Origin: the human T2T-CHM13v2.0 reference genome, Homo sapiens
DNA length: 64,000 bases
Reading direction: 5' to 3' (one strand)
Assembly: GCF_009914755.1 (NCBI RefSeq)
Contig: NC_060942.1
Shown: one piece after another, positions 1 to 61,483 of the stretch
Numbering within the stretch: the stretch's first letter is position 1
How the letters are laid out: each line of letters begins with the position of its first letter
Program-made: the position numbers and the translations under genes
The notes under the pieces: generated by a model
Databases searched by the model: none
What the model saw: the letters and a program-made list of their open reading frames with translations, nothing else
What the model was told of the DNA's origin: nothing

Positions 1-77
1 GAAGTGGGATAGGCCAGGCCTGGAGTGCGGAGAGATGGAGAAAGCTGTAGGGTCTGGCAGACATATCCTGTGCTTAC

Positions 78-146
78 CACGATCACCACTTTGGGGGTGG
101 GGCCCTTAACCTCCCGCTGTACGGTGCCAAACCGCTGGCTGTACAT
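78..146 (-). CDS. CFAP53: CFAP53 (CCDC11) coding exon 1; gene continues left of the window
   Basis: Minus strand from ATG at 146 reads MYSQRFGTVQREVKGPTPKVVIV (23 codons), then a GTAAGC donor at 77-72. Matches the N-terminus I recall for human CFAP53. Confidence 0.93.
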
Positions 147-420
147 TTTCGAGTCCCCTTCGGGACGGGGGCGGCGTCCGCCGCGTTTCCCCCAACCGTG
201 GCGACCTGCGGGACCCGCTTCCGCGACGCAGAAGTCTGGTTGCCATGGTGCGCCTCGCGGGATTAGGGGCCGGTAGAGGTGGGCGGGTCGGGCGGAAGTC
301 GGTCTGGTCACCATGGGGGCCGCAGACGCCTGCACTCGGGACTTCCTCTTCCAGCTGAGAAGCTGAGCCTGCGCAGTCCTCACCCCGCCCCTCGGCCAAA
401 TCCCGCCGACCTTGCTCCCT
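147..420 (-). promoter_or_regulatory. CFAP53 CpG-rich promoter/5'UTR with RFX X-box-like and ETS motifs
   Basis: CpG dense. GTTGCCATGGTGC at 239-251 and GTCACCATGGGGGC at 307-320 resemble the RFX X-box typical of ciliary genes; CGGAAGT at 293-299. Confidence 0.75.
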
Positions 421-689
421 TCCTCCAGGGTTCATCAGAATGGCAGAAAAAACCTCTAGCCCAAGAAAAATCAAAGCTCTAATTACAATTCCAGTTGACT
501 TTGCTATTTATATCTTGTAATGGTCTAAAAGTATGAAAAAGGTTAGCGAACATTTTTTGGGAAGCTTAAATTTTGCACTATCTGTAGGTTAATCTTGATG
601 ACGGTAATAATCACAGGAAAACCTTATATTTGTGTAGTTCTTTACAATTTCCAAGATATTTTCACACACACAGCCTTTTAACCTCACAG

Positions 690-980
690 ATTTTTTCTGA
701 GACAAGGTCTCGCTCTGTCGCCCAGGGTGGAGTGCCGTGGCGTGATCATGGCTCCCTGCAGCCTCGTCCTCCTGGGCCTCAGCCTCCAGAGTATCTGGGA
801 CTACAGAGCCTGCGCCACCACGCCCTGCTAATTTAAAAACAAATTTTGAAGAGACAGGGGGTCCCGCTATGTTGCTCAGGCTGGAACTCCTGCTCCTGGG
901 TTCAAGCGATCCTCCCCACTGCCCCTCCCGCCGGCCTCCCAAAGTGTTGGAATTACAGGGTGCGCTACCGCGCGTGGCCG
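690..980 (-). mobile_element. Alu (AluJ-like)
   Basis: GAGACAAGGTCTCGCTCTGTCGCCCAGG...CCCAAAGTGTTGGAATTACAGG, dimeric Alu structure in reverse orientation. Confidence 0.85.
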
Positions 981-1329
981 CAAATATCTTACAGGGTTGA
1001 TAGAATAGCAAGTAATACTATCCTTATTTTCCAGCTAAGGCAAAGCTCAGGGAGCCTAAGTGCCTTGTCAAACCAAATAACCAGTAATAATAATAATTTT
1101 TTAAAACCTGTTAATAAAATCTTCCTATTTGCCATTGGCAGAAACCAGGGCTTAGACTCAGGATATCCTAGGATGGGGGCAGATCAAATGGACTAGTGGG
1201 GCAGTGGCACGACCTGGTGGAGCATAATTAAGAGTCTGAGGGTCACAGTGGACCAGGGTCAGGATGTGGATCAGAAGTCCAGTAACTGGTTTCTGAGAAT
1301 CAGGATCCAGGCAGAACAGGAAACACAAA

Positions 1330-1405
1330 TCAGGGAACCAGGACGGACCTGCAGCACAGGTGGTAACCACAGTTGCATTTCCAGTCAAGAGCAAGGTGGT
1401 AATAC
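1330..1405 (-). CDS. MBD1: MBD1 alternative terminal coding exon (R)YYHLALDWKCNCGYHLCCRSVLVP*
   Basis: tttag acceptor at 1407-1406, phase-compatible with the exon ending CCA AG at 6419; TGA at 1332-1330. Peptide matches an MBD1 isoform C-terminus I recall. Confidence 0.7.
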
Positions 1406-1644
1406 CTAAAAGCCAATTAAGAATGACACTGTGATACTCCCATTCTAAAGTGGGGGTGAGCATAGAACACTTGTGAGCACATGCAACAAATCAGTACCTA
1501 CGTCAAACTGACATATAATAAGTACAACTAATGTGTATGCCCTCTTAAGGACGCAATTTACTGTAAATTAGCATTCCTTAATCATTTGTAAACCACCCAC
1601 TTCGGATTTTGTATGTGGTATGTTTCTAAATACGAATTCCATTT

Positions 1645-58377: not shown

Positions 58378-58479
58378 CACCTTTGTCCCTTTTAAGTCAA
58401 ACTGATGGTGTTTTCACTAATGATTATTTCAAAAATGCCATGTGTTTTCCTGTTAGGATTTGATCTCCGCCTAAAGCTA

Positions 58480-58975
58480 TTTCTTCTTCTTCTTCCTCTT
58501 CCTCTTCTTCTTCTTCTTCTTCTTCTTCTTCTTCTTCTTCTTCTTCTTCTTCTTCTTCTTCCTCTTCCTCCTCCTCTTCCTCCTCTTCCTCTTCCTCCTC
58601 CTCTTCCTCCTCTTCCTCCTCTTCCTCTTCCTCCTCCTCTTCCTCCTCTTCCTCCTCTTCCTCCCCTTCCTCTCCTTCTCCTCCTCCTCCTCCTCCTTCT
58701 TCTTCTCCTTCTTCTCCTTCTCCTCCTTCTCCTCCTTCTCCTTCTCCTCCTTCTCCTCCTTCTCCTCCTTCTCCTTCTTCTCCTTCTCCTTCTTCTTCTC
58801 CTTCTCCTTCCTCCTCCTTCCTCCTCCTTCCTCCTCCTTCCTCCTCCTTCCTCCTCCTTCCTCCTCCTTCCTCCTCCTTCTCCTTCTTCCTTCTTCTTCC
58901 TTCTTCTTCTTTCTTTCTTCTTCTTCTTCCTCTTCCTCTTCTTCCTCTTCTTCTTCTTCTTCTTTCTTCTTTTTT
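58480..58975. repeat. Compound (CTT)n/(CCT)n trinucleotide tract
   Basis: About 495 bp of C and T only; pure (CTT)19 at 58504-58560. Confidence 0.95.
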
Positions 58976-59259
58976 TGAAAAGGAGTTTCGCTCTCGTTGC
59001 CCACGGCCAGAGTGCAATGGTACGATCTCAGCTCATTGCAAATTCTGCCACCTGGATTCAAGCGATTCTCCTGCCTCAGCCTCCCAAGTAGCTGGGATTA
59101 AAGGCATGTGCCACCACGCCGGGCTAATTTTGTACTTTTAGTAGAGACGAGTTTTCTCCATGTTGGTCAGGCTGGTCTTGAACTCCCAACCTCAGGCGAT
59201 CCCCCTACCTCGGCCTCCCAAAGTGCTGGGATTACAGGCATGAGCCACTGCACCTGGCC
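58976..59259 (-). mobile_element. AluS whose tail is the GAA/GAG tract
   Basis: TSD CCTAAAG(C/T)TATTTCTT at 58470-58485 and 59261-59276. Confidence 0.85.
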
Positions 59260-59419
59260 TCCTAAAGTTATTTCTTAATTTTATCATTGCTTGTCCTGGA
59301 GAGGCTGAGGACAAAATTTTAGCACCCTGTCTAGAAATCTCCTTAGCTAGATCATCCATTGCATTAAGTAAAAATTTCTATTTTTCATGTGATGGCAGCT
59401 GACCATTTTGCTTTACTTT

Positions 59420-59690
59420 CTTTTTTTTTCTTTTTTTTTTTTTTTTTTGGAGACAGTGTCTCGCTCTGTCACCCAGGCTGGAGTGCAGTGGCGCGATCTC
59501 GGCTCACTGTAAGCTCCACCTCTCGGGTTCACGCCATTCTCCTGCCTCAGCCTCCCGAGTAGCTGGGACTACAGGCGCCTGCCACCGTGCTCGGCTAATT
59601 TTTTGTATTTTTAGTAGAGACGGGGTTTCACCGTGTTAGCCAGGATGGTCTCGATCTCCTGACCTTGTGATCCACCCGCCTTGGCCTCCA
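59420..59690 (-). mobile_element. AluY, 5'-truncated
   Basis: AluY-type GGGTTCACGCCATTCTCC and GTGTTAGCCAGGATGG; TSD CCATTTTGCTTTACTTTC. Confidence 0.85.
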
Positions 59691-60011
59691 TTTTGCTTTA
59701 CTTTCAACCAGTACATAACAAGGGTCCTCCTTCCTCCAGCTACTGATAACATTGTCCTCACTTTCCTTTAGTACTTCCAGGTACTTTCTGCCAACAGCAA
59801 AGCCAAGATTAGATTCTAACATACTTGGAACTTTCATTCTCAGTGTAGGCCAGGTCAGAACACAAGAGCACAAATACTGATAATGGTGTCATTCATTGAT
59901 TAACATACTCTCTAAGGCTATAATTTACTGTAAATTGCCATTTTGAAATATTCTTTAATCTATACATTTCAGATTCTCAATGTATATTTTTCTAGATTTG
60001 GATTACACTAC

Positions 60012-60198
60012 CTGAATTGCTTGTCTAGTTTTTCACCCACAAAATCTTGTCTGTTACTTTACGTTATTTTCTATGTATGTATTTTTTACTTTCTCTCATT
60101 CTTTTATTTTTTTCTTTTCCTTTAGTTGTTTCTTCTTTCAATTTCATTTTGGTAAAATACTCATTTTCATCTCCTTCTAAGACCTTTCTTCATATTCC
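60012..60198 (-). pseudogene. CFAP53 exon-3 relic retaining both splice sites
   Basis: tttctttcag|...RKVLEGDENEYFTKMKLKEET...KRMRE...RQDFVGEKLDKQFR|gtagtg versus CFAP53 RELLALEENEYFTEMQLKKET...DRMRE...RQDFVAEKLDQQFR; contains a stop and a frameshift. Confidence 0.8.
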
Positions 60199-61483
60199 CT
60201 GAAAGAAATAAAGAAATTAAGCTGTTTTCAGAAGGAAGTTCTGTAGGCGGATTGTTTACCTGCGACTCCAACACAAACTCCCCCATGGGAAGGATGCATT
60301 CAGTGACAACTACCCAAGCACAGTGAGACCACCTGCCACATTTTAGAATTCCTGAGCACTAAGACCTTGTTATCAGAGGGTAGCGGTTAGGTGGTGAGGA
60401 CACCTTGGCTCAGGTGATAGATTCAGGAGTGGGGCTAGAGACGGGTGGGGCTTGGCAAGAGGGGCGGAGCCTGAGTGGAACCAAGCTTGGCAAGAGGACT
60501 GGAGCCATTAGGGGTGACTGCAAAGGCCAGGCTCTTGCCAAGCTGGTCACAATCTGTACTGAGCTATGACACCCTGAGCTGCTTGGCCCTTGATTGAAAA
60601 AAACTGCTAGAAACTCAGAAGGTTCAGAGTGTTCTCTCTGCTCCCCTCTCAGAAGACAGAAAAACTGAGGCCCCCAAATGGAAGGGTTTTAGGTGGTCCT
60701 GGTGTCCTCCTCGAGCCATGGTTTCAGAGCAGCCCCTTAAAACTGGTGTGACAAAGGCAAGGGGCACAAAAAGGTGTAGTTCATAAAGCATGGTTTAGAG
60801 GAACCTCAAATCAGAAATGATAAGCAATGCTCACCCCTCAATGGACTTCTAGGAGCACCCTCCATGCGTAGAGATCTTGGAGAACATATTGTGTAGTATT
60901 TGGCTGACTTGACTGATCACAGAGTGGGAATATCTCGACTGAAAGGGGGGAAATACCTCCTTGATGAAGAAGTGGATTCACTAAGAAGGAGAATCTAAGG
61001 GGACAAATTCCTGTATAAAATCAGAGTGGTGGTTATCCAAAGGGGATAGATTTGTTTTCCAGAGGAGAATGAGTCCCTCATGGTGGGGCACTTGGGGGAA
61101 CAGGCACTTCCAGGTATGTCTCTGGAAGTCCCAAGAGTTCAGCTCCCAATGGCCTCTATTTTATCTTTCAGTGGAAGGCTGAGGAACCTGCTGAAGGTGA
61201 AGGAGTGAGAATCTTTTTATAATTTGAGACTATTTGGTTTAGATGGATTGCATTTTGAATCTATCATATAGAGGGTCAAAATCTCATTATACTATCCAAA
61301 TCAACATCAGAAGTTAGTGAGAGATTCAGCATTCTGAAAGCTGAAGTTCATATATAGCTGTCTCAACTCTGGCTCAACTCAGTAGAGCAGGGCTGGAGTG
61401 GCAAGGTGGCACAGAAGTATGGCAGAGGTACATTACATGAGTTAGAGTTGAGATGTGGCCAAAAGGTATCAGAATTCCCTAGA

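What the first reader, a model, noticed from the sequence alone, without database searches (positions are those of the whole stretch)
1..61480. Hidden ancient tandem array of CFAP53 5'-end duplicates, with MBD1 and CXXC1 embedded inside it
Seen in sequence: non-repeat blocks recur in the same order and orientation. Exon-1/promoter block at 1-547, 6180-6455, 31470-32053 and 41280-41680. Block A (520-1640) again at 24340-25100, 44390-46440 and 59840-60010. Exon-3 relics at 1645-1792, about 46450-46510 and 60012-60198. Block B (3720-6200) again at 26000-29600, 40600-41280 and 61240-61480. Example shared strings: GGGAGCCTAAGT..CTTG..A (1050, 24579, 44922) and TTCAAGACCC..A.TGA (6056, 41141). From knowledge: the exon relics translate into the CFAP53 N-terminal sequence I recall. 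Inference: the CFAP53 promoter-to-exon-3 segment was tandemly amplified at least four times and then decayed; the one ungapped comparison counted is 75% identical, and the copies carry independent L1M/LTR insertions, suggesting an old event. MBD1-CXXC1 interrupts one unit between its promoter and block A. I know of no description of this array.
Basis: partly seen in the sequence, partly recalled or inferred. Interest (0 to 1): 0.9.

Follow-up and report, generated by a model that had tools for sequence, protein, structure and literature searches.

The report
Fossil CFAP53 5'-end array around MBD1
The first 6 kb of the cilia gene CFAP53 was copied about five times long ago into a now badly decayed local array, and the neighbouring gene MBD1 appears to have built its last exons, including part of its repression domain, out of one of the dead copies.

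Summary
Only the exon-3 relic at about 46450-46510 is not.

With flanks fetched, I find six units of the CFAP53 promoter-to-intron-3 segment. They are U0 (the live gene, window -6139..532), U1 483-6463, U2 24318-32006, U3 40451-41669, U4 44360-46448 and U5 59777-73859, which runs off the window.
- **Divergence:** identity is 52-76% (K80 0.3-0.8) and the tree is star-like.
- **Locus specificity:** whole-genome searches find blocks A, B and C only at this chr18 locus.
- **Controls:** reversed-sequence controls give 0 nhmmer hits and 3 blastn hits, against 7574 real blastn hits.
- **Coding relics:** exon 1 and exon 3 relics are decayed, and exon 2 is missing from every copy.

MBD1 and CXXC1 lie between U1 and U2.

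New here: MBD1's last three exons sit in U1.
- Exon 6419-6480 encodes repression-domain residues I573-P592. Its 3' part is an inverted copy of the CFAP53 core promoter (z about 16).
- Exon 5211-5282 and part of the 3' UTR are homologous to CFAP53 intron 1.

I found no description in print. This is a new member of a known kind, an ancient unprocessed partial duplication, with an exaptation twist.

The parts
1..532 (-). U0, right end of the live unit. It holds CFAP53 intron 1 start (1-77), exon 1 (78-237, coding 78-146) and the core promoter (238-~532), which carries two X-box-like motifs near 238-252 and 307-320. The rest of U0 lies left of the window (-6139..0).
   Evidence: Hub annotation; exon 1 peptide; promoter alignment; CpG o/e 0.81-0.89. 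The X-box name is recalled, not tested.
483..1640 (-). U1 block A, the homologue of CFAP53 intron 3. It is interrupted by an Alu at 691-991 and includes a MIR-like piece at about 1005-1134.
   Evidence: U0 -6098..-4993 to 1145-1812, E 2e-53; three-way alignment with U2 and U4; genome-wide, only local matches.
1645..1782 (-). U1 exon-3 relic, with an in-frame stop and deletions.
   Evidence: tblastn E 1.1e-6, 41% of 54 aa; alignment; only one other match in the genome, the true exon 3, 71%.
2636..6290 (-). U1 block B, the homologue of CFAP53 intron 1. A unit-specific interspersed repeat is inserted at 3135-3721. The block contains MBD1's last exon (2588-3560, 3' UTR) and its last coding exon (5211-5282).
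   Evidence: 2636-3063, 3675-4458, 4478-5382, 5459-6353 against U0, E 1e-19 to 4e-63; 39 of 41 matches fall in 3135-3721, on many chromosomes; alignment over exon 5211-5282.
6301..6348 (-). U1 exon-1 relic, inside an MBD1 intron.
   Evidence: 56% of 16 aa, E 0.12, weak alone; it lies in the collinear DNA alignment (-756..148 to 5459-6353) and.
6365..6463 (+). U1 promoter relic, inverted relative to the rest of the unit. It overlaps MBD1 coding exon 6419-6480 (residues I573-P592).
   Evidence: local score 39 against 500 shuffles with mean 10.6, sd 1.7, max 17; blastn E 5e-7, nhmmer E 4e-6, minus orientation.
24318..25135 (-). U2 block A, starting with the same A-start as U1 and U4.
   Evidence: profile hit 24318-24693, E 4e-106, a training member; 24575-24815 found genome-wide as a local-only match.
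26008..29515 (-). U2 block B, with Alus at 27065-27376 and 28009-28323. The exon 3 and exon 2 region is missing between 25135 and 26008.
   Evidence: 26072-26944 E 1.5e-54; 28298-29515 E 1.5e-85.
31455..32006 (-). U2 exon-1 relic and promoter relic. It keeps GTCACCATGGGAAC at 31824 and CpG o/e 0.85.
   Evidence: U0 -48..495, E 1.8e-16.
32504..35437 (-). Block C, extra sequence following the promoter. It is shared only by U2 and U5 (73842-75918) and is interrupted by an Alu and another repeat at 33015-33928.
   Evidence: E 8e-36, 4e-6, 4e-24; no other locus in the genome.
35841..36364 (+). Young (97%) second copy of 31852-32378, which is the end of U2's promoter relic plus 372 bp.
   Evidence: 97.15% over 527; only these two copies in the genome; 12 mismatches, 6 of them in CpG context.
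40451..41669 (-). U3: block B tail, exon-1 relic (41397-41456) and promoter relic (41514-41669, CpG o/e 0.75).
   Evidence: 40682-41669 E 3e-44; 40451-40590 E 7e-6.
44360..46448 (-). U4: block A only (44360-44612, 44843-45447, 46301-46448), with Alus between the pieces. No supported exon-3 relic.
   Evidence: blastn U2-U4 24496-25087 to 44840-45442, E 2e-63.
59777..61493 (-). U5, the part inside the window: block A tail, exon-3 relic (60011-60189, frameshifted with stops) and the start of block B (61288-61493). The unit continues to 73859 outside the window.
   Evidence: E 3e-22, 1e-3; E 1.8e-8; 61288-61488 to 26008-26202, E 1.6e-7.

Best explanation
This is a fossil local amplification of the 5' end of CFAP53.

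**The unit.** A genomic (unprocessed) segment of about 6.5 kb was duplicated. On the gene's minus strand it reads promoter, exon 1, intron 1, exon 2, intron 2, exon 3, start of intron 3.

**How it formed (inferred).** The segment was first duplicated head-to-tail and then multiplied, most likely by unequal crossing-over or replication-based duplication between the copies. This happened in a short burst long ago. Only U0 kept its coding exons. The five other units (U1-U5) decayed neutrally, lost exon 2, picked up independent Alu, LINE-like and LTR-flanked insertions, and now span about 82 kb (window -6139..75918).

**Position of the neighbours.** MBD1 and CXXC1 lie at the junction between U1 and U2.

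**What was reused.** The array as such has no function, but pieces were reused.
- MBD1's last three exons lie in U1.
- The 3' two thirds of exon 6419-6480 (MBD1 L579-P592) are an inverted copy of the CFAP53 core promoter. The promoter's palindromic X-box-like motif supplies the splice donor.
- Exon 5211-5282 (last 13 codons) and about 430 nt of the 3' UTR are homologous to CFAP53 intron 1.

**Shown:** homology, order, orientation, locus-specificity and the exon overlaps.
**Inferred:** the duplication mechanism, the age, and the direction of the MBD1 exaptation.
For: 1. **Collinear, same-strand homology of all units to U0 and U1.** 22 of 23 and 20 of 21 non-self nhmmer hits are direct. All unit pairs tested by blastn agree.
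2. **Controls.** 0 nhmmer hits against reversed sequence. 3 blastn hits against 7574 real.
3. **Locus-specific.**
- The query 992-3130 found 4 candidates in 3.1 Gb, all scored and all at this locus.
- The query 3725-6460 found 35 candidates, all scored. One is self, 3 are local, and 31 are confined to a 39-94 bp piece at 3969-4064.
- Block C behaves likewise.
4. **Unprocessed origin.** Promoter and intron sequence is copied along with exon relics that carry stops and frameshifts. True exon 3 equals CFAP53 residues 101-158 of PDB 7UNG.
5. **Recurrent junction.** The same promoter-to-A junction occurs twice: 282-434 with 482-666, and 41514-41667 with 44358-44537.
6. **Unit-specific repeats.** One sits in U1 (3135-3721) and one in U0 (-1107..-740). 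Each is absent from the other units, so the duplications came first.
7. **Age and tempo.** K80 is 0.30-0.79 between units. ML trees have terminal branches of 0.21-0.48, internal branches of 0.04-0.06 and bootstraps of 59-72. This points to a burst followed by long decay.
8. **MBD1 overlap.** In one search the inverted match scores 39 against a shuffle maximum of 17.
Against: - The order of duplications is unresolved, because the tree is star-like with weak support.
- The array is not a simple tandem. U2 and U5 are followed by block C, not by another A block. About 13 kb (46510-59777) and 4 kb (36364-40451) between units show no unit homology.
- Exon 2 is missing from all copies, so they may descend from one already damaged copy. 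That would make it a two-step history rather than repeated copying of the live gene.
- The whole-genome DNA search loses sensitivity below about 67% identity and skips very common words. Very old dispersed relatives of single blocks, such as MIR or L2 pieces, cannot be fully excluded.
- A profile search of the genome was not possible.
- No other species could be examined, so the age rests on divergence alone.
Confidence: 0.85

Rival explanations
1. The recurring blocks are fragments of one or a few ancient interspersed repeat families (L2, MIR, L1M, LTR) that happened to insert in the same orientation. They would not be a segmental duplication.
For: - Part of block A (about 1005-1134, 24511-24642, 44900-44960) looks like a MIR core (my recall). 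It also matches a piece at -12818..-12690 in a CFAP53 intron.
- A 39-94 bp piece at 3969-4064 has 31 matches on other chromosomes.
- The genome search cannot see relatives below about 67% identity.
Against: - Blocks A, B and C otherwise hit only this locus, with all candidates scored.
- The blocks keep one fixed order over 6 kb, together with CFAP53 exon 1, exon 3 and promoter relics.
- 42 of 44 non-self nhmmer hits are in one orientation.
Confidence: 0.04
2. The similarities are chance or compositional matches (AT-rich, low-complexity or CpG-island sequence) picked out by eye.
For: - Some single hits are weak, for example 61358-61493 at E 7e-3 and 46347-46431 at E 5.5e-3.
- Global-alignment identities of 52-58% in block B3 are near what unrelated DNA can give.
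Against: - Reversed-sequence controls gave 0 nhmmer hits for both queries and 3 blastn hits against 7574 real.
- The strongest hits reach E 1e-85.
- Weak hits are confirmed by independent unit pairs. For example, 26052-26201 to 61340-61487 has E 9e-9.
Confidence: 0.01
3. The polarity of the MBD1 relation is the reverse, or the sequence was shared from the start.
- MBD1's terminal exons may already have lain inside the ancestral CFAP53 5' region, as same-strand overlapping genes, and been copied with it.
- Alternatively, the CFAP53 promoter piece 205-302 derives from an inverted copy of an older MBD1 exon.

In either case MBD1 gained nothing from the dead copy.
For: - The AG acceptor is kept in all five aligned copies, and the GT donor in four (U0, U1, U2, U3; U5 has lost it), for the homologues of exon 5211-5282.
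- That window is the best conserved 350 columns of block B2.
- No outgroup was available.
Against: - The promoter piece stands in direct orientation next to an exon-1 relic in four units (U0, U2, U3, U5). It is inverted only in U1, so inversion is the derived state.
- Identity of the exon-5211 homologues between units other than U1 is about 63-67% by my count on the alignment, close to the background.
- No MBD1 or CXXC1 exon relics occur elsewhere in 154 kb.
Confidence: 0.25
4. The copies are retrocopies (processed pseudogenes) of CFAP53 mRNA fragments.
For: A real processed copy exists elsewhere. At chr15:61697067-61697729, exon 1 abuts exon 2 without intron 1.
Against: The chr18 units carry promoter and several kb of intron 1 and intron 3 sequence in genomic order, and they lack exon 2.
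Confidence: 0.01

Closest known systems
Unprocessed (duplicated) partial pseudogenes from tandem segmental duplication, for example truncated 5' gene copies beside a parent gene
   Same: - Genomic copies with promoter, introns and disabled exons.
- Same strand, next to the parent.
- A recurring head-to-tail junction.
   Different: - Far older and more decayed (52-76% identity) than what segmental-duplication catalogues list. As I recall, those use at least 90% identity over at least 1 kb.
- Six units.
- Two unrelated live genes sit inside the array.
- All copies lack exon 2.
Exonisation or exaptation of non-coding DNA into coding exons, as described for Alu and MIR exonisation and for de novo terminal exons (recalled general knowledge)
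   Same: MBD1 exons 6419-6480 and 5211-5282 and its 3' UTR overlap sequence whose paralogous copies are promoter or intron.
   Different: The source is not a transposable element. It is a dead duplicate of the neighbouring gene's 5' end, and one exon comes from an inverted core promoter. The resulting residues (R583, R585, L591) are needed for partner binding (PMC4014985, passages read).
CFAP53 processed pseudogene on chr15 (found here)
   Same: It derives from the same 5' part of CFAP53 and has similar identity (74-75%).
   Different: It is spliced (exon 1 joined to exon 2), dispersed to another chromosome, and contains exon 2, which the chr18 units lack.

Membership tests
Ancient local or tandem segmental duplication (unprocessed partial gene copies) | Copies contain non-exonic genomic sequence (promoter, introns) of the parent in the parent's order and orientation | tested here: met
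   collinear chains of 2 to 6 blocks per unit. 42 of 44 non-self hits are direct.
Ancient local or tandem segmental duplication (unprocessed partial gene copies) | Similarity exceeds chance | tested here: met
   reversed controls gave 3 blastn hits (7574 real) and 0 nhmmer hits.
Ancient local or tandem segmental duplication (unprocessed partial gene copies) | Copies confined to the locus, not dispersed genome-wide | tested here: met
Ancient local or tandem segmental duplication (unprocessed partial gene copies) | Recurrent head-to-tail junction between units | tested here: met
   the promoter-to-A junction is seen at U0|U1 and U3|U4. U2 begins with the same A-start. U2 and U5 instead continue into block C.
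Catalogued human segmental duplications (at least 90% identity, at least 1 kb; definition recalled) | Identity of 90% or more over 1 kb or more | tested here: not met
   52-76% identity. The only young repeat is 527 bp at 97%.
Interspersed repeat family | Many dispersed copies on other chromosomes | tested here: not met
   for blocks A and B. The feature is met only for inserted pieces (3135-3721; -1107..-740; Alus) and for the short piece 3969-4064.
Processed pseudogene | Exons joined without introns | tested here: not met
   One search shows introns are present in the chr18 units. The chr15 copy does meet this feature.
Exapted (exonised) non-coding sequence in MBD1 | Exon homologous to sequence that is non-coding in paralogous copies | tested here: met
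Exapted (exonised) non-coding sequence in MBD1 | Exon absent from orthologues that predate the source duplication | not testable with these tools
   No other vertebrate genome is held. Spliced MBD1 protein could not be handed to the protein searches without joining sequence.

The most novel reading that the evidence does not exclude
Part of the MBD1 transcriptional repression domain was born from junk left by a neighbour's duplication.
- The exon for I573-P592 takes L579-P592 from an inverted relic of the CFAP53 core promoter. That stretch includes R583, R585, D586 and L591, which matter for MCAF1 and MPG binding. The promoter's palindromic RFX-type X-box became the 5' splice site.
- The last 13 codons and about half of the 3' UTR come from relic CFAP53 intron 1.

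In addition, two relic promoters (U2 at 31750-32000, U3 at 41480-41680) still have CpG o/e of 0.85 and 0.75 and X-box-like motifs. This suggests they have stayed unmethylated and bound in the germ line, as orphan CpG islands or cilia-programme enhancers.
Probability: 0.5. Interest if true: 0.7.

Novelty: new member of a known kind. Interest (0 to 1): 0.55.

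Why it matters
- **Detectability.** Multi-copy partial gene amplifications can stay detectable at 55-70% identity. That is far below the threshold of segmental-duplication catalogues. 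About 20% of this 64 kb window (12,921 bases) is such fossil sequence.
- **Origin of MBD1's tail.** It gives a concrete, testable origin for the C-terminal end of MBD1's repression domain and for its 3' UTR. It may also explain read-through or mis-fused MBD1-CFAP53 gene models: a bovine CFAP53 chain in PDB 7RRO is also labelled MBD1.
- **Candidate regulatory elements.** It flags relic CpG-rich promoters with RFX-like motifs between CXXC1 and SKA1.
- **Variant interpretation.** Anyone interpreting variants or conservation in MBD1's 3' end or in the CXXC1-SKA1 gap should know the sequence is paralogous to CFAP53's 5' end.

Tried and rejected
- **Profile search of the genome.** I built a sequence-only covariance model of the best block-B window to look for very old dispersed relatives. 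The tool does not accept models for this genome, so that test is open.
- **Exon 2 relics.** None lies in a collinear place. One weak tblastn hit at 42996-42886 (32% of 37 aa, E 0.006) lies out of order between U3 and U4 and has no DNA-level support. I treat it as chance.
- **MBD1 or CXXC1 exon relics in other units.** None were found. The only 6 non-self hits are the CXXC-domain cross-matches between the two genes. There is therefore no sign that the gene pair was ever part of the repeated unit.
- **U0 counterpart of the first ~630 bp of block A (483-1117).** It was not found next to U0's A core. The only hit is a MIR-like piece at -12810..-12715. It is undecided whether that is the displaced counterpart or an unrelated MIR.
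- **Order of duplications.** The trees are unresolved.
- **LTR-pair reading of 31852-32378 and 35841-36364.** Rejected. The 527 bp has only these two copies in the genome, and its first 155 bp are U2's promoter relic.
- **Rfam.** No match in the window at gathering scores.
- **Homology between 46510-59777 and any unit.** None was found at E<=0.01 with the U0 and U1 queries. That stretch itself was not used as a query.

Full report
**What was checked**

The window is human chr18:50468001-50532000. The whole assembly can be searched as G000. CFAP53 runs leftward out of the window on the minus strand. I therefore fetched 40 kb to the left (the gene body) and 50 kb to the right and worked on 154 kb, window coordinates -39999..114000.

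A plain self-comparison of the window is dominated by Alus. After masking positions hit six or more times, 107 non-repeat blastn pairs remain, 78 direct and 29 inverted.
- The inverted pairs are LINE-like or LTR-flanked elements, plus one CpG-rich match discussed below.

nhmmer gives clean collinear chains. The queries were the live 5' end of CFAP53 (U0, -6100..500, two Alus removed) and the first copy (U1, 482-6460, one Alu and one repeat removed).
- U1: 1145-1812, 2636-3063, 3675-4458, 4478-5382, 5459-6353.
- U2: 24362-25135, 26036-26944, 27848-28011, 28276-29515, 31455-32006.
- U3: 40451-40593, 40671-41669.
- U4: 44360-44612, 44884-45447, 46301-46448.
- U5: 59777-60275, 61288-61493, then outside the window 65409-66900, 72429-72997, 73355-73859.

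Of the non-self hits, 22 of 23 (U0 query) and 20 of 21 (U1 query) are direct. One hit of the U1 query is a MIR-like piece at -12818..-12690.

Controls:
- The same two queries against the reversed, non-complemented 154 kb give 0 hits at E<=0.01.
- blastn of the reversed sequence gives 3 hits, against 7574 real ones.

The exception is the exon-3 relic at about 46450-46510. There tblastn gives E 2.5, and the DNA alignment ends at about 46448 in the intron-3 flank.

**These are not interspersed repeats**

- With U1's 992-3130 as query, the whole genome yields 4 candidates, all scored and all at this locus. They are the query itself, true exon 3 with its flank (71%), U5 (72%) and U2 (67%).
- With 3725-6460, 35 candidates were all scored. 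One is self and three are local (U2 twice, U0 once). The other 31 are confined to a 39-94 bp piece at 3969-4064.
- Block C (see below) also has no match off the locus, apart from Alu edges.

What is dispersed are unit-specific insertions.
- A repeat of about 600 bp at 3135-3721 in U1 accounts for 39 of the 41 matches, at 69-81% identity on many chromosomes.
- A repeat of about 350 bp at -1107..-740 in U0 accounts for 38 of the 40 matches.
- Both sit exactly where the U0-U1 alignment is interrupted, so they were inserted after the units separated.

Limits of this test:
- The search scores only the best candidates.
- It skips very common words.
- In my hands it found nothing below about 67% identity.

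**What the unit is**

- True exon 2 lies at -4269..-4039 and exon 3 at -5187..-5014.
- Exon 3 translates to residues 101-158 of CFAP53 in PDB 7UNG, 58 of 58 identical.
- Exon-3 relics with stops, deletions or a frameshift lie at 1782-1645 and 60189-60011.
- Exon-1 relics lie at 6348-6301, about 31620-31695, 41456-41397 and 73682-73620.
- Exon 2 is missing from all three copies that keep both flanks (U1, U2, U5). This hints that they descend from one already damaged copy.
- The copies contain promoter and introns, so they are not retrocopies. A real retrocopy, with exon 1 joined to exon 2, turned up on chr15 and makes a useful contrast.

**Architecture**

The promoter-to-A junction occurs twice. 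One is 282-434 next to 482-666 at U0|U1. The other is 41514-41667 and 44358-44537 at U3|U4, now 2.7 kb apart through insertions. This recurrence is the signature of head-to-tail duplication.

U2 starts with the same A-start at 24318-24362, right after CXXC1's upstream region.

U2 and U5 instead continue beyond the promoter into a shared block C (32504-35437 against 73842-75918). At least one larger duplication is therefore involved.

No MBD1 or CXXC1 exon relics occur elsewhere in the 154 kb. No unit homology was found left of -6139, apart from the MIR-like piece, or right of 75918.

**Age**

- Identities are 52-76% and K80 is 0.30-0.79.
- ML trees are star-like: terminal branches 0.21-0.48, internal branches 0.04-0.06, bootstraps 59-72.
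- I read this as a burst of duplication followed by long neutral decay.
- From general knowledge of human-lineage neutral rates, branches of about 0.3 substitutions per site are in the range of MIR- and L2-age sequence. That would place the burst before the eutherian radiation.
- This is inference. No other species could be examined.

**MBD1 is built partly from U1**

All of the following lies on the same strand as the relic.
- MBD1's last exon (2588-3560, 3' UTR) overlaps U1's homologue of intron 1 (2636-3063 against U0 -3393..-2962, E 2e-39) and the inserted repeat.
- Its last coding exon (5211-5282) lies in the best conserved 350 columns of block B. Homologues in U0 (CFAP53 intron 1), U2, U5 and U3 align across it.
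- Exon 6419-6480 translates to ITEIFSLGGTRFRDTAVWLP, residues I573-P592 of the 605-residue protein.
- From L579 onward that exon, together with the following 54 intron bases, is an inverted copy of the CFAP53 core promoter and 5' UTR, positions 205-302. The local score is 39, against 500 shuffles with mean 10.6, sd 1.7 and maximum 17. blastn gives E 5e-7 and nhmmer E 4e-6.
- The exon's donor CAAG|GTGTGC aligns with CATG|GTGCGC of the promoter's palindromic motif.
- The promoter piece stands in direct orientation beside an exon-1 relic in U0, U2, U3 and U5. The inverted state in U1 is therefore derived. The simplest reading is that MBD1 recruited the relic.
- Passages read in PMC4014985 report that I576/L579 and R583/R585 are needed for MCAF1 binding, I576/L579 for HDAC3, and a triple mutant including L591 for MPG. 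The numbering agrees with my translation.
- The reverse polarity, in which the exons predate the duplication, cannot be excluded without outgroups.

**Relic promoters**

- U2 (31750-32000) and U3 (41480-41680) keep CpG o/e of 0.85 and 0.75.
- U1 and U5 have fallen to about 0.3.
- U2 keeps GTCACCATGGGAAC, and U3 and U5 keep near-copies. These resemble the RFX X-box as I recall it. This was not tested.

**Literature**

Three full-text searches gave listings with nothing on a CFAP53 5' array or on this origin of MBD1's exons. The searches were CFAP53/MBD1/CXXC1, CCDC11 with tandem duplication, and CFAP53 with duplication terms. Only the listings were looked at. Subscription journals and genome-browser tracks such as self-chains are not covered.

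**Verdict**

The finding is a real, old, locus-specific amplification of the CFAP53 5' end. It is a new member of a known kind. The added point of interest is that a well-studied chromatin protein seems to have taken functional C-terminal sequence from it.

Noticed in passing
G000 chr15:61697067-61697729 (L012/L013): A processed CFAP53 pseudogene fragment. Exon 1 (74% identity) abuts exon 2 (75%) with intron 1 removed, then reads on about 250 bp into intron 2. The exon-2 peptide is 62.5% identical over 72 aa, with two stops.
   Followed up: yes
window 31852-32378 and 35841-36364: A young direct duplication: 527 bp, 97%, 12 mismatches (6 in CpG context) and 3 gap columns, with copies 3989 bp apart. 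These are the only two copies in the genome. The first 155 bp are the end of U2's promoter relic. The rest is CpG-rich and holds a 68-bp inverted repeat near 32263-32330.
   Followed up: partly
window 1800-2100: A unique CpG island (GC 62%, CpG o/e 0.96) just upstream of U1's exon-3 relic. It sits in the stretch where U1 has no counterpart in U0, and RefSeq lists an enhancer at 1829-2018. Its origin is unknown.
   Followed up: no
window 7880-8098 vs 19434-19657: The MBD1 exon 7928-8095 and the CXXC1 exon 19490-19669 (CXXC zinc fingers) are 65% identical at the DNA level and 63% over 46 aa. This is the known CXXC-domain paralogy between adjacent genes.
   Followed up: partly
PDB 7RRO chain 3: [quoted passage not shown] This fits fused or read-through MBD1-CFAP53 gene models, given that MBD1's 3' exons lie in a CFAP53-like unit on the same strand.
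   Followed up: no
outside the window: 66891-72547 (L007/L008), and -35335..-29900 (L003/L004): An LTR-flanked element of about 5.7 kb (flanks 81% alike) is inserted in U5's block B. A related element lies in opposite orientation in a CFAP53 intron, with flanks 94% alike. Both were noted by coordinates only.
   Followed up: no
outside the window: 77679-82115 vs 98705-103089: A 4.4 kb direct match at 92% identity between CXXC1 and SKA1. It is either a younger segmental duplication or two LINE copies.
   Followed up: no
window 52726-52844: The annotated 5S rRNA pseudogene does not reach Rfam's gathering score. The window has no Rfam match at all.
   Followed up: partly
window 42886-42996 (minus strand): A weak exon-2-like tblastn hit (32% of 37 aa, one stop, E 0.006). 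It lies between U3 and U4, out of unit order, and has no DNA-level support.
   Followed up: partly
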